From assembly GCF_003334405.1 (NCBI RefSeq), contig NZ_QOWM01000003.1: DNA of 64,000 nt; one strand, 5' to 3'. Both the position numbers and the translations under genes were made by a program. A model generated the notes under the pieces. It did no database searches. It was given only the letters and a program-made list of their open reading frames with translations, and was not told the origin of the DNA. The stretch's first letter is position 1; every line of letters begins with the position of its first letter. Shown in pieces: positions 42,343-45,142 of this stretch. This DNA is from Escherichia coli. GTDB taxonomy: Bacteria; Pseudomonadota; Gammaproteobacteria; Enterobacterales; Enterobacteriaceae.

Positions 42343-43704
42343 TTACTTCTCCAGTTGCTTCAGGATACGATTAACTTTATCAAAAGTTTCCTGATATTCC
42401 GCTTCTTCCTGGCTATCGGCGACAATTCCACCGCCCGCAGAGCAGAAAATTTGTCCGTTAATGGCAGTCAGCGTGCGGATAGTAATACTGGTATCCATGT
42501 TGCCGCAAAAGCTCAAATAGCCAATGCTGCCGCACCAGGCATTGCGTCGCTGCGGTTCCAGTTCGTCGATAATTTCCATAGCCCGTACTTTCGGAGCCCC
42601 GGTTATTGAGCCACCAGGAAAAGCTGCGCGCAGCAGATCGCTGGCGTGTAACTGTTCTGGTAGTTGCGCCGTTATGGTGCTGACCAGATGATGCACGGCA
42701 GGGAAGGGTTCCACCACGAACAGCTCTGGTACTTTTACCGAACCTGCTACGGCAACACGACCGATATCATTACGCATTAAATCGACAATCATCAGATTTT
42801 CGGCACGATCTTTCGCTGAGTTCGCCAGTTTTACTGCTTGTTTGCTATCTTCCTGAGGATCGGGCAGGCGTGGTAGCGTGCCTTTAATCGGGCGGGTCTG
42901 GATTTCACTATTATCACAAAGAATAAACCGCTCTGGCGAAAGGCTTAAAATTGCACCCTGTTCAAGACGTAAAAAAGCGCTAAATGGCGCGCGGTTGGCC
43001 TGATTAAGCTGAAGGAATGCCTGCCATTCATCGCCAGAATAGGTCGCATGAAAACGTTGGGCGAGATTCACCTGATAGCAATCACCGCTGTGCAGATATT
43101 CCTGTACCTGGCGAAATTTTTCGCCGTACTGCTCGCGGGTCATATTGGATTGCCAGTCGGAAGTGAGCGTGAAATCTTCCTGCGGCGAGAATTGCTGGCT
43201 TTCCAGCCAGGCCCGACGGGCATTGACATCATTATGACTCAGCAAAGAAACTGTATGACGCTGGTGGTCGACAATGAGCGCCCAATCGTAGATACCCACT
43301 GCCATATCCGGCAGAACGATATCTTGTTCCGCAATTTCTGGCAGTGACTCAAAACGGCGGCCCAGATCGTAGCCAAACAACCCCAGTGCGCCGCCCTGAA
43401 ATGGCAAATCTTCGTTATGCGTTGGGCGAATGTCTGCGCGATCCAGCACCTGCTGGAGCACCTGTAGCGGGTCATCAGTTGTCGTTGTGCGTTTTTCGCT
43501 TTCACTAACAACGGTTTCTTTACCGAAAGTGGTTAAAGTGCAAATCGGCTCGGCGACCACAATATCAAAGCGGCTATACGGATGATCGGCATAGCCGGAG
43601 TGTAAAAGCATCGCCCACGGCAGGTGGCTTAAGCGGGAGAAATAAAATTCAGCGGCGTCCTGACGCCAGGGTAAAGTAATCACAGCGGGAGATAACGTCT
43701 TCAT
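42343..43704 (-). CDS. pabB: Aminodeoxychorismate synthase component I
   Basis: Track ORF 453 aa, chorismate-binding family. Confidence 0.95.
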   Translation of the reverse strand: MKTLSPAVITLPWRQDAAEFYFSRLSHLPWAMLLHSGYADHPYSRFDIVVAEPICTLTTFGKETVVSESEKRTTTTDDPLQVLQQVLDRADIRPTHNEDLPFQGGALGLFGYDLGRRFESLPEIAEQDIVLPDMAVGIYDWALIVDHQRHTVSLLSHNDVNARRAWLESQQFSPQEDFTLTSDWQSNMTREQYGEKFRQVQEYLHSGDCYQVNLAQRFHATYSGDEWQAFLQLNQANRAPFSAFLRLEQGAILSLSPERFILCDNSEIQTRPIKGTLPRLPDPQEDSKQAVKLANSAKDRAENLMIVDLMRNDIGRVAVAGSVKVPELFVVEPFPAVHHLVSTITAQLPEQLHASDLLRAAFPGGSITGAPKVRAMEIIDELEPQRRNAWCGSIGYLSFCGNMDTSITIRTLTAINGQIFCSAGGGIVADSQEEAEYQETFDKVNRILKQLEK

Positions 43705-43777
43705 CAGTCCTGACTCTACTGGCTATGTGCCGGGTAGCATGAAATAATTAGCGCCAACAATTTAGCAGGAGTTAACA

Positions 43778-43957
43778 ATGTTTGCAGGTTTACCTTCACT
43801 CACCCATGAACAGCAGCAAAAAGCTGTCGAGCGGATCCAGGAACTGATGGCACAAGGGATGAGCAGCGGCCAGGCAATCGCGCTGGTGGCAGAAGAGCTG
43901 CGTGCCAACCACTCCGGCGAGCGAATCGTGGCGCGTTTTGAGGATGAAGACGAGTAA
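43778..43957 (+). CDS. yoaH: Small protein YoaH (UPF0181, 59 aa)
   Basis: Not in track (<60 aa). Translates to [59 protein letters not shown], preceded by a GGAG Shine-Dalgarno. Confidence 0.82.
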
Positions 43958-44076
43958 CACACTAATCCGTATCGATTTCGTTATAGAAGCCGATGATCAT
44001 TTGATTGTGAGAAAAAGGACGCTTTTTATATGTGATTAAAAGCGTCCTGACCCATTTATGCTGATATAAATTTAAC

Positions 44077-44376
44077 TCAGACCAGTGCTTTTAGTTCTTC
44101 CTGCATATATGTTGAAAAGTATTCAGGATTTTTAATCACAGAACGTTCACCTGTCTCCATTTTTTTTGCCCATCCAACCATTTTTTCCGTGAACCCAGGG
44201 TTCCAGCCTTCCTGGTCAGCTCGCGCCGTAATATCAGCGGCACTCGCGGGTACTCCCAGTTCTTTTAAATATTTAAAGATTCCCTTCGCCGTGCTTTCAT
44301 TCATCGAACTTGGTGTTGGCGCTGATACATCCATGGCACCAATGAAATCCAGGGCTTTATCTATTACAGCAGGCAT
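44077..44376 (-). CDS. yoaC: DUF1889 protein YoaC
   Basis: Track ORF 44077-44436 (119 aa); annotated start probably the internal MPAVIDKALDF... (99 aa). Confidence 0.8.
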   Translation of the reverse strand: MPAVIDKALDFIGAMDVSAPTPSSMNESTAKGIFKYLKELGVPASAADITARADQEGWNPGFTEKMVGWAKKMETGERSVIKNPEYFSTYMQEELKALV

Positions 44377-44797
44377 ATTCTTATCCTTAAAATTAACCAT
44401 GTTATCGATAAGGCTATATATGACCTTAATTTGCATCTAATATCAAAGGGATTATAACGATATGGCACGAGTTAACCTGTTGACATTCAGGTGTTTTAAA
44501 GGTAGCAGCTCATGGTGTGTTATCCAGTAAGATGGAGAAATTTAACGGTCAGTCCGCACGCTATAACCAGATTGTTCAGCTAAGAAAGAAAACCAGAGTT
44601 GCTAATCAAAGGGCGAACACAACGGCATGTTTATGTTTATTTATATAGTTAGTTTTATAGATAAAATTGAAATTATAAATATAAATAATGAATTAGCAGA
44701 AGCATCAACAGTAATATCTTATTCTCTGGTCGATTTATGTAAAACCGACCAGTATTATCGATAAATTATCGTCTGACTTATTTTGCTTCGATAAAGC

Positions 44798-45142
44798 TTA
44801 CACCGCAGCCACAATCTTAATTTCAACTTTATACTTCGGGTTCATCAAACCCGCTTGTACCGTGCAGCGCACCGGCGCATGACCCGCGACAACCCAGGCA
44901 TCCCACGCTTTATTCATCGCCGCGAAGTCGTTTTTATCGGCCAGGAAAATGGTGGCATCCAGAATGCTCGATTTATTGCTGCCCTGTTTTTCCAGCACGG
45001 CGTCAATCTGTGCCAGCGTGTTGGCGGTTTGCTCAAAGGCATCGGCGTCGAGGTTTTCCGGTACACCAGTGTAGTAGAGCGTGTTGTTGTGGATTACTAC
45101 ATCAGACCAGCGGGCTTCAGCATCGATACGAACGATAGTCAT
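44798..45142 (-). CDS. yoaB: RidA/YjgF-family protein YoaB
   Basis: Track ORF 44798-45190 trimmed to MTIVRIDAEARWSDVVIHNN... (114 aa). Confidence 0.88.
   Translation of the reverse strand: MTIVRIDAEARWSDVVIHNNTLYYTGVPENLDADAFEQTANTLAQIDAVLEKQGSNKSSILDATIFLADKNDFAAMNKAWDAWVVAGHAPVRCTVQAGLMNPKYKVEIKIVAAV

What the first reader, a model, noticed from the sequence alone, without database searches (positions are those of the whole stretch)
43705..43957. yoaH (59 aa) missed by the ORF track
A 59-codon ORF with a GGAG ribosome-binding site sits in the pabB-yoaC spacer and encodes the UPF0181 YoaH sequence; it is one residue under the 60-aa cut-off.
Basis: partly seen in the sequence, partly recalled or inferred. 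Interest (0 to 1): 0.3.

Follow-up and report, generated by a model that had tools for sequence, protein, structure and literature searches.

The report
yoaH, a known small E. coli gene
The 59-codon reading frame is the long-annotated Escherichia coli gene yoaH (b1811), a real and conserved small protein of unknown function, so the finding is correct but ordinary.

Summary
An ATG-started 59-codon ORF lies at 43778..43957 (+), with AGGAG 6 nt upstream, between pabB (-) and yoaC (-). At a 60-aa cut-off the only ORF listed there is a 66-aa antisense shadow ORF. The stretch is 100% identical to MG1655 yoaH (b1811, NP_416325.1) and is present in 5425 of 5426 complete E. coli genomes. The protein passes the NCBIfam YoaH equivalog model (114 bits, cut-off 72) and Pfam UPF0181 (3e-29). 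Across 81 distinct Enterobacterales sequences the sense frame is under strong purifying selection (median dN/dS 0.08), while the antisense ORF carries stops in 78 of 81. An extended -10-like element, the Shine-Dalgarno sequence and the ATG are conserved across genera. AlphaFold2 predicts an acidic two-helix hairpin (net charge -6) with a disordered tail and no significant structural relative. The one added point is that the Vibrio cholerae homologue (49% identical) is VxrE, fifth gene of the vxrABCDE envelope-stress two-component operon. Function remains unknown; I infer a small protein-binding modulator. Already known, low interest.

The parts
43778..43957 (+). yoaH coding sequence (59 codons plus TAA); UPF0181/YoaH family protein, identical to MG1655 b1811
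   Evidence: Median dN/dS is 0.08 over 2100 pairs, with third codon positions variable in 48/49 codons against 19/49 for second positions.
43767..43771 (+). Shine-Dalgarno AGGAG, 6 nt before the ATG
   Evidence: Read directly from the sequence. CAGGAG is kept in 17 of 19 genera aligned.
43719..43748 (+). Promoter-like element (inferred): CTGGCT as a weak -35, a 17-18 nt spacer, and an extended -10 TGAAATAAT at 43740-43748. The predicted transcription start is near 43755, giving a 5' UTR of about 23 nt.
   Evidence: GC(A/G)TGAAATAAT is conserved in 18 of 19 Enterobacterales genera while the flanks diverge. The consensus scan did not call it because the -35 matches only 3 of 6. The transcription start is not shown.
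43775..43777 (+). ACA immediately upstream of the ATG; reported MazF cleavage site of the yoaH mRNA
   Evidence: Sequence. PMC5001579 Table 1 lists yoaH with the cleaved ACA at distance 3 from the start, polysome-associated.
44016..44048 (.). Hairpin between the convergent genes yoaH and yoaC (AGGACGCTTTTTAT / ATTAAAAGCGTCCT). The U-run follows it only on the minus strand, so it is primarily the yoaC terminator and possibly bidirectional.
   Evidence: -15.5 kcal/mol on + (z -3.7) and -17.0 kcal/mol on - (z -5.9). The terminator scan did not call it because the loop is 11 nt.
43762..43962 (-). 66-aa antisense shadow ORF (GTG start). It is not a gene, but it is the only ORF of at least 60 aa listed here.
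   Evidence: It carries stops in 78 of 81 distinct Enterobacterales sequences and has no PHROG or PADLOC match.
42343..43704 (-). pabB (aminodeoxychorismate synthase component 1), divergent neighbour; 73-bp intergenic region shared with yoaH
   Evidence: Divergent pabB|yoaH arrangement in 81/81 Enterobacterales loci examined (80 from the genome scan plus the E. coli locus L001).
44077..44376 (-). yoaC (DUF1889), convergent neighbour; Escherichia-specific
   Evidence: tblastn finds YoaC only in the three Escherichia loci.

Best explanation
Shown: the feature is yoaH (b1811), a genuine, conserved, expressed protein-coding gene. It encodes a 59-residue cytoplasmic protein of the UPF0181/YoaH family and is transcribed divergently from pabB. 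It was absent from the ORF track only because it is one codon under the threshold. Inferred: it has its own promoter (a conserved extended -10 about 30 nt upstream of the ATG) and is translated from a canonical AGGAG-ATG start. Predicted: the protein is a strongly acidic two-helix hairpin (helices 10-25 and 30-49) with a disordered acidic tail that is specific to Enterobacteriaceae. Inferred mechanism, about 0.35 on its own: it has no room for a catalytic site and no membrane or signal segment. It does have a conserved polar patch (Q13, E18, the G27-x-S-S loop, R42) on a conserved hydrophobic hairpin core. It therefore most likely acts by binding another protein as a small modulator. Its Vibrio homologue VxrE is co-transcribed with the VxrAB (WigKR) envelope-stress two-component system, which points to signalling or stress modulation. 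E. coli lacks that system, so the partner here is unknown. The confidence figure refers to the identity of the gene.
For: Identity: the DNA is 100% identical to MG1655 yoaH, NP_416325.1. It is present once per genome in 5425 of 5426 complete E. coli genomes and annotated as yoaH. Family: NF003476 equivalog at 114.2 bits against a cut-off of 72; PF03701 at 3.2e-29. Coding: median dN/dS 0.08, with a third-position excess of variable sites; ATG start in 82/82 sequences; SD and extended -10 conserved across genera. Synteny: sdaA-nudL-pabB | yoaH | yoaB | yoaA in the Enterobacterales loci. Expression: the mRNA is polysome-associated (PMC5001579) and is among the top up-regulated genes in a knockout transcriptome of another uncharacterised E. 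coli gene (PMC12356324). Phenotype: Salmonella single-gene deletions in both cassette orientations are outcompeted, with competitive index 0.16/0.15 on melon and 0.08/0.05 in LB (PMC12767474). Structure: the AF2 hairpin has pLDDT 95-98 across residues 11-40; net charge -6, pI 4.7, no hydrophobic run longer than 7. Vibrio link: the V. cholerae YoaH-family protein is 49% identical. It is the fifth gene after pntAB-HK(DUF3404)-RR-DUF2861-TraF_2, which matches the published vxrABCDE operon. In two further lineages a single ORF joins DUF2861 and UPF0181 directly after the same HK-RR pair.
Against: No experiment assigns a function. vxrE is dispensable for VxrAB-dependent VadR activation (PMC7695739) and for T6SS activation (PMC10268840), and it has only a minor colonisation defect (CI 0.70, PMC4441509). 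A role in Vxr signalling is therefore itself unproven. Gene context differs in three orders: pabB in Enterobacterales, vxr in Vibrio, and a DUF446 gene plus a pseudouridine synthase (PseudoU_synth_2) gene in Pasteurella, so context gives no common partner. No significant structural neighbour was found. A linker-joined homodimer model was of low confidence. The Salmonella phenotype has not been complemented and could in principle involve the adjacent pabB promoter.
Confidence: 0.97

Rival explanations
1. YoaH is a minimal helix-turn-helix-like nucleic-acid-binding protein. As a dimer it might act as a small transcription factor on the divergent pabB promoter or other targets.
For: There are sub-threshold profile similarities of the helix-G-x-S-S-x-x-A-I segment to HTH-type domains: Pfam RsmI_C HTH (E 0.053) and HTH_63 (E 0.063), and in PDB the MerR-type CarA N-terminal domain 2jml (E 0.075) and the Mu transposase HTH subdomain 2ezk (E 0.43). 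The divergent arrangement with pabB is conserved, with a 73-bp shared control region.
Against: None of these matches is significant. The model has only two helices and no third helix or wing. The protein is strongly acidic, net -6 and pI 4.7, with a median core charge of -2 across the family. The whole sdaA-yoaA block is syntenic, so adjacency to pabB carries little information. Outside Enterobacterales the gene is not next to pabB.
Confidence: 0.12
2. YoaH/VxrE is a distant relative of the LTXXQ-motif envelope-stress proteins (CpxP, Spy, ZraP). It would act like CpxP as a helical-hairpin inhibitor or chaperone attached to a two-component sensor.
For: YoaH carries L-T-H-E-Q at residues 8-12. 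CpxP-type proteins are helical hairpins that modulate a stress-sensing kinase (established knowledge). VxrE sits in an envelope-stress two-component operon. Secreted repeat proteins such as P0206 and P0139, which were hit by YoaH, have units of the form LTPEQRQQV...G-K-T-P-x-E-I. P0206 hits both Pfam Metal_resist (the ZraP/CpxP clan, E 0.012) and UPF0181 (E 0.082) at marginal levels. In some lineages UPF0181 lies in one ORF with the periplasmic protein VxrC (DUF2861).
Against: Profile-profile comparison of the YoaH alignment with E. coli CpxP gives a probability of 1.4%. YoaH has no Pfam LTXXQ or Metal_resist hit. YoaH has no signal peptide or hydrophobic segment, so it should be cytoplasmic. 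The DUF2861-UPF0181 single ORF keeps an AGGAG plus ATG at the junction, so the small protein is probably still made separately.
Confidence: 0.07
3. The ORF is not functional as a protein. The conserved sequence would serve as the pabB promoter or regulatory region or as an RNA, or the antisense 66-aa ORF would be the real gene.
For: The pabB start is only 73 bp from the yoaH start, so pabB control elements must lie in or near this region. The antisense ORF is longer, at 66 aa.
Against: The substitution pattern is that of a protein under purifying selection in the + frame (dN/dS 0.08). The antisense frame has stops in 78 of 81 sequences. The family exists in other gene contexts in Vibrio and Pasteurella. 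There is no Rfam match. The mRNA is found on polysomes.
Confidence: 0.01

Closest known systems
E. coli K-12 YoaH (b1811, NP_416325.1; UPF0181, Pfam PF03701, NCBIfam NF003476)
   Same: Identical DNA and protein, with the same neighbours pabB, yoaC, yoaB and yoaA.
   Different: Nothing; it is the same gene. Its function is uncharacterised in the literature I could search.
Vibrio cholerae VxrE (VCA0569), fifth gene of the vxrABCDE (WigKR) operon
   Same: Homologous small protein: 53 aa, 49% identity over 49 residues, E 6e-18. It belongs to the same Pfam family and shows the same conserved-core pattern in the family alignment.
   Different: VxrE is co-transcribed with a DUF3404 histidine kinase, an OmpR-type regulator, DUF2861 and a TraF_2 outer-membrane-like protein. 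E. coli yoaH stands alone next to pabB, and none of these genes is near it. VxrE lacks the [12 protein letters not shown] tail. The published VxrE phenotypes are weak.
CpxP/Spy/ZraP (LTXXQ-motif periplasmic helical hairpins)
   Same: An LTxxQ-like motif, a helical hairpin, and (for VxrE) association with an envelope-stress two-component system.
   Different: No detectable homology (hhalign 1.4%). YoaH has no signal peptide and is about a third of the size.
Helix-turn-helix domains (MerR-type helices 3-4, RsmI_C HTH)
   Same: A local helix-Gly-turn-helix pattern with marginal profile scores.
   Different: Scores are below significance, there are only two helices, and the protein is acidic.

Membership tests
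UPF0181 / YoaH family (PF03701, NF003476) | Full-length match to the curated NCBIfam equivalog model above its cut-off | tested here: met
   114.2 bits against a cut-off of 72; residues 1-59 on profile positions 1-60 of 60
UPF0181 / YoaH family (PF03701, NF003476) | Significant Pfam PF03701 domain match | tested here: met
   i-Evalue 3.2e-29; residues 1-49 on model positions 1-49 of 50
UPF0181 / YoaH family (PF03701, NF003476) | Single-domain protein of about 50-65 aa with the conserved core LTHEQQ..AVE.I..LM..G(M/I)SSG(E/Q)AI..VA..(L/I)R | tested here: met
   Alignment of 46 diverse members: A33 and I34 invariant; Q13, A16, E18, I20, L23, G27, V37, A38 and R42 at least 90% conserved
UPF0181 / YoaH family (PF03701, NF003476) | Orthologous position in Enterobacterales (divergent from pabB, convergent with yoaB) | tested here: met
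   pabB lies divergently upstream in all 81 loci; yoaB/yoaA lie downstream in most
UPF0181 / YoaH family (PF03701, NF003476) | Evolves as a protein-coding sequence | tested here: met
   Median dN/dS 0.08; variable codon positions 29/19/48 of 49
UPF0181 / YoaH family (PF03701, NF003476) | The protein is actually made in the cell | not testable with these tools
   Only indirect evidence: a polysome-associated mRNA in a published Poly-seq data set (PMC5001579)
VxrE, accessory gene of the vxrABCDE two-component operon | Sequence homology to V. cholerae VxrE | tested here: met
   49% identity, E 6e-18. The V. cholerae protein is the fifth gene after pntAB-HK-RR-DUF2861-TraF_2
VxrE, accessory gene of the vxrABCDE two-component operon | Encoded in an operon with a DUF3404 histidine kinase, an OmpR-type regulator and DUF2861 | tested here: not met
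   The window and the 80 Enterobacterales loci have pabB and yoaB/yoaC as neighbours and no such genes. It is a homologue, not a member of a vxr system.
CpxP/Spy/ZraP LTXXQ family | Detectable profile homology to CpxP-type proteins | tested here: not met
   hhalign probability 1.4%; no LTXXQ or Metal_resist hit in Pfam
CpxP/Spy/ZraP LTXXQ family | Signal peptide and periplasmic location | tested here: not met
   No N-terminal hydrophobic segment; the longest hydrophobic run in the family is 7. This is a crude test and localisation was not measured.
Helix-turn-helix DNA-binding domains | Significant match to an HTH profile, and a three-helix or winged architecture | tested here: not met
   Best E-values 0.05-0.075; two helices only; net charge -6

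The most novel reading that the evidence does not exclude
YoaH and VxrE would form one family of small cytoplasmic modulators of stress signalling. The E. coli and Salmonella copy, orphaned from the Vxr system, would still act on a conserved partner and would account for the strong competitive defect of Salmonella yoaH deletions in rich medium. This would give a first function to a gene conserved throughout Enterobacterales, Vibrionaceae and Pasteurellaceae.
Probability: 0.15. Interest if true: 0.45.

Novelty: already known. Interest (0 to 1): 0.1.

Why it matters
As a finding it matters mainly as a quality check. A 60-aa ORF threshold hides a real, universally conserved gene and lists a spurious 66-aa antisense ORF in its place. 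Biologically, yoaH is one of the remaining uncharacterised E. coli K-12 genes. Linking it explicitly to Vibrio VxrE, and to a strong uncomplemented fitness phenotype in Salmonella, gives a concrete starting point for experiments. Nothing here changes current understanding.

Tried and rejected
2. Sequence searches of PDB, with the single sequence and with the family profile, gave nothing significant.
3. Relation to CpxP through the LTxxQ motif was rejected by hhalign at 1.4%.
4. A homodimer test, with two copies joined by a 20-residue Gly/Ser linker and a duplicated alignment, gave mean pLDDT 51 and pTM 0.33. It offers no support, and the method is crude, so the result is inconclusive.
5. The Rfam scan of 43300-44900 found nothing at E up to 1.
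6. A phage or defence origin is unlikely. There is no PADLOC hit. phrog_29644 matches at 1.9e-15, but the only phage record holding the gene is an unannotated 2.4-kb 'Salmonella phage' fragment, most likely chromosomal DNA.
7. The simple promoter/terminator scan called neither the yoaH promoter nor the yoaH/yoaC hairpin. Both were found by alignment and folding instead.
8. The first genome-collection scan with the broad alignment failed for lack of a conserved block. The narrower alignment returned only Enterobacterales among its best 80 loci, so distant contexts were fetched protein by protein.
9. Literature searches for PF03701 and b1811 gave nothing useful.

Full report
**Observation**

The window holds an ORF at 43778..43957 on the + strand. 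It starts with ATG, runs for 59 codons and ends in TAA. It translates to [64 protein letters not shown] lies at 43767-43771, 6 nt before the ATG.

The ORF sits in the 372-bp spacer between pabB (42343..43704, -) and yoaC (44077..44376, -). With a 60-aa threshold, the only ORF listed in this spacer is an antisense one at 43762..43962 (-), 66 aa with a GTG start. The track would in addition show a shadow ORF on the wrong strand.

**Identity**

- The 253 bases 43705-43957 match 5425 of 5426 complete E. coli genomes, once per genome, at 95% identity or better, and are annotated as yoaH.
- They are 100% identical to MG1655 yoaH, b1811, NP_416325.1.
- The neighbourhood is sdaA-nudL-pabB (-), yoaH (+), yoaC (-), yoaB (-), yoaA (+).
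- The protein matches the NCBIfam equivalog NF003476 'YoaH family protein' at 114.2 bits against a curated cut-off of 72, over its whole length.
- It also matches Pfam PF03701 (UPF0181) at 3.2e-29.

**Is it a real coding gene?**

ORF length alone is not evidence, since one search lists 45 ORFs of 30 aa or more in 4.5 kb. I therefore took the orthologous region from 80 Enterobacterales species.

- All sequences have an ATG start.
- In 74 of 82 sequences (81 loci plus the window) the ORF is 59-63 aa.
- Over the ungapped first 49 codons, the variable columns by codon position are 29, 19 and 48 of 49.
- The median pairwise dN/dS is 0.08 over 2100 pairs.
- The antisense 66-aa frame carries stop codons in 78 of 81 distinct sequences.

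Alignment of the upstream region across 19 genera shows islands of conservation in otherwise divergent sequence. These are CTGG (window 43719-43722), GC(A/G)TGAAATAAT (18 of 19 genera; window 43740-43748 reads TGAAATAAT, an extended -10), CAGGAG and the ATG. I infer a dedicated promoter with a start near 43755. The start site itself is not shown, and the simple consensus scan missed the element because its -35 is weak.

Downstream, a hairpin at 44016-44048 lies between the convergent genes yoaH and yoaC. Its U-run is on the minus strand, so it is mainly the yoaC terminator. There is no Rfam match in 43300-44900.

**Published evidence**

- yoaH is listed among MazF-processed, polysome-associated mRNAs, with the cleaved ACA 3 nt from the start (PMC5001579). 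The window has ACA at 43775-43777.
- It is among the top up-regulated genes in a knockout transcriptome of another uncharacterised E. coli gene (PMC12356324).
- It is one of many ASKA overexpression clones recovered in an oxidant-resistance screen (PMC8228696).
- In Salmonella Typhimurium, transposon insertions reduce fitness on melon. Single-gene deletions in both cassette orientations are outcompeted, with competitive index 0.16/0.15 on melon and 0.08/0.05 in LB, but not in PBS (PMC12767474). This has not been complemented. pabB does not appear among that paper's hits, which argues weakly against a polar effect.

**The protein**

An exhaustive HMMER search of 1.84 billion cluster representatives found only 94 hits at E of 0.001 or below. 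The named members come from Enterobacterales, Vibrionaceae, Pasteurellaceae and Thorsellia.

The conserved core spans residues 7-44. A33 and I34 are invariant, and Q13, A16, E18, I20, L23, G27, V37, A38 and R42 are at least 90% conserved. The tail [12 protein letters not shown] is confined to Enterobacteriaceae and close relatives.

AlphaFold2 with this alignment gives a two-helix hairpin, H10-25 and H30-49. The pLDDT is 95-98 across residues 11-40, and the tail is disordered. The protein has net charge -6 and pI 4.7, with no hydrophobic segment that could be a signal peptide or membrane helix.

Structure and sequence searches of PDB gave nothing significant.

**Context outside Enterobacterales**

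In V. metschnikovii, V. chagasii and V. cholerae the homologue is the fifth gene of a cluster. The order is a histidine kinase with DUF3404, an OmpR-type regulator, DUF2861, TraF_2 and then UPF0181, directly after pntAB.

This is the architecture published for vxrABCDE (VCA0565-0569), in which VxrA carries DUF3404 and VxrC carries DUF2861 (PMC4441509, PMC10237652). VxrE is therefore a YoaH homologue, at 49% identity and E 6e-18. The 2015 paper stated that the operon members resemble no characterised protein. Databases do name the Vibrio protein 'YoaH family', but I found no paper that draws the connection.

In two further lineages a single ORF joins DUF2861 and UPF0181 right after the same kinase-regulator pair. 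The junction keeps AGGAG plus ATG, so the small protein is probably still made separately.

In Pasteurella the gene follows a DUF446 gene and a pseudouridine synthase (PseudoU_synth_2) gene.

Published VxrE phenotypes are modest:
- colonisation competitive index 0.70;
- dispensable for VadR activation;
- dispensable for T6SS activation;
- transposon insertions 10-fold depleted in sub-MIC tobramycin.

**Mechanism**

The following is shown or predicted with confidence: a small, acidic, soluble helical hairpin under strong purifying selection. Everything beyond that is inference.

The protein is too small for a catalytic site and too acidic for direct DNA binding, and it has a conserved polar patch on a conserved hairpin core. 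It most likely works by binding another protein. The vxr linkage suggests stress or signalling modulation. I put about 0.35 on this.

The rivals are as follows:
- An HTH-like nucleic-acid binder. The supporting profile hits are marginal (E 0.05-0.08), and two helices and the acidic charge argue against it.
- A CpxP-like LTXXQ protein. It shares the motif and the two-component theme, but hhalign gives 1.4% and there is no signal peptide.
- A non-coding or antisense reading, which is excluded.

**Verdict**

The finding is correct in both observation and interpretation, and the gene is already known. Its practical value is as a warning about the 60-aa threshold and the shadow ORF. The modest added value is the explicit YoaH-VxrE link and the collected phenotypes.

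Noticed in passing
window 43958-44800: The DNA between yoaH and yoaB, which includes yoaC, is AT-rich: GC is 28-45% against about 50-55% in the flanks. YoaC is found only in the three Escherichia loci. In most other genera yoaH and yoaB are convergent with stops only about 10-60 nt apart. This looks like an Escherichia-specific insertion of roughly 0.8 kb.
   Followed up: partly
window 44077-44436 (-): The yoaC reading frame is open for 119 codons from an upstream ATG at 44436, whereas RefSeq annotates 99 codons (44077..44376). The true start was not examined.
   Followed up: no
L082 1012-2118 and L091 3054-4151: A single ORF joins a VxrC-like DUF2861 protein (with signal peptide) to a YoaH-like domain, directly after a DUF3404 kinase and an OmpR-type regulator and with no TraF_2 gene. 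The junction keeps AGGAG plus ATG. It may be a read-through of two genes rather than a true fusion.
   Followed up: partly
proteins P0139, P0206, P0154: These are repeat proteins. P0206 carries a predicted signal peptide. Their roughly 55-residue units, LTPEQRQQV..KELREQGKTPQEIRAAIAEMLKGWG, resemble the YoaH core. They score marginally against both Pfam Metal_resist (ZraP/CpxP clan) and UPF0181. The source organisms are unknown.
   Followed up: partly
L085 10370-16165: In one V. metschnikovii genome, filamentous-phage genes (Zot, a secretin, a gp8-like coat protein) lie just downstream of the vxrE homologue. Several V. cholerae genomics papers, some on the CTX prophage, turned up in the VCA0569 search, but I did not read what they say about that locus.
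   Followed up: no
(E. coli genome collection): One of 5426 complete E. coli genomes has no match to the yoaH region, and in one genome the match lies on a record labelled as a plasmid.
   Followed up: no
L003 6178-8048: In one E. coli strain the yoaH-yoaC and yoaB-yoaA spacers are about 180 and 340 bp longer than in E. albertii and MG1655, which suggests small insertions such as repeat elements.
   Followed up: no
L011, L012, L014, L031, L033-L035, L055, L065: In several Klebsiella, Kluyvera and Raoultella loci, yoaB and yoaA are not found within 6 kb downstream of yoaH. A few loci have yoaH ORFs extended to 78-103 codons, which suggests rearrangement or a lost stop codon at the 3' end.
   Followed up: no
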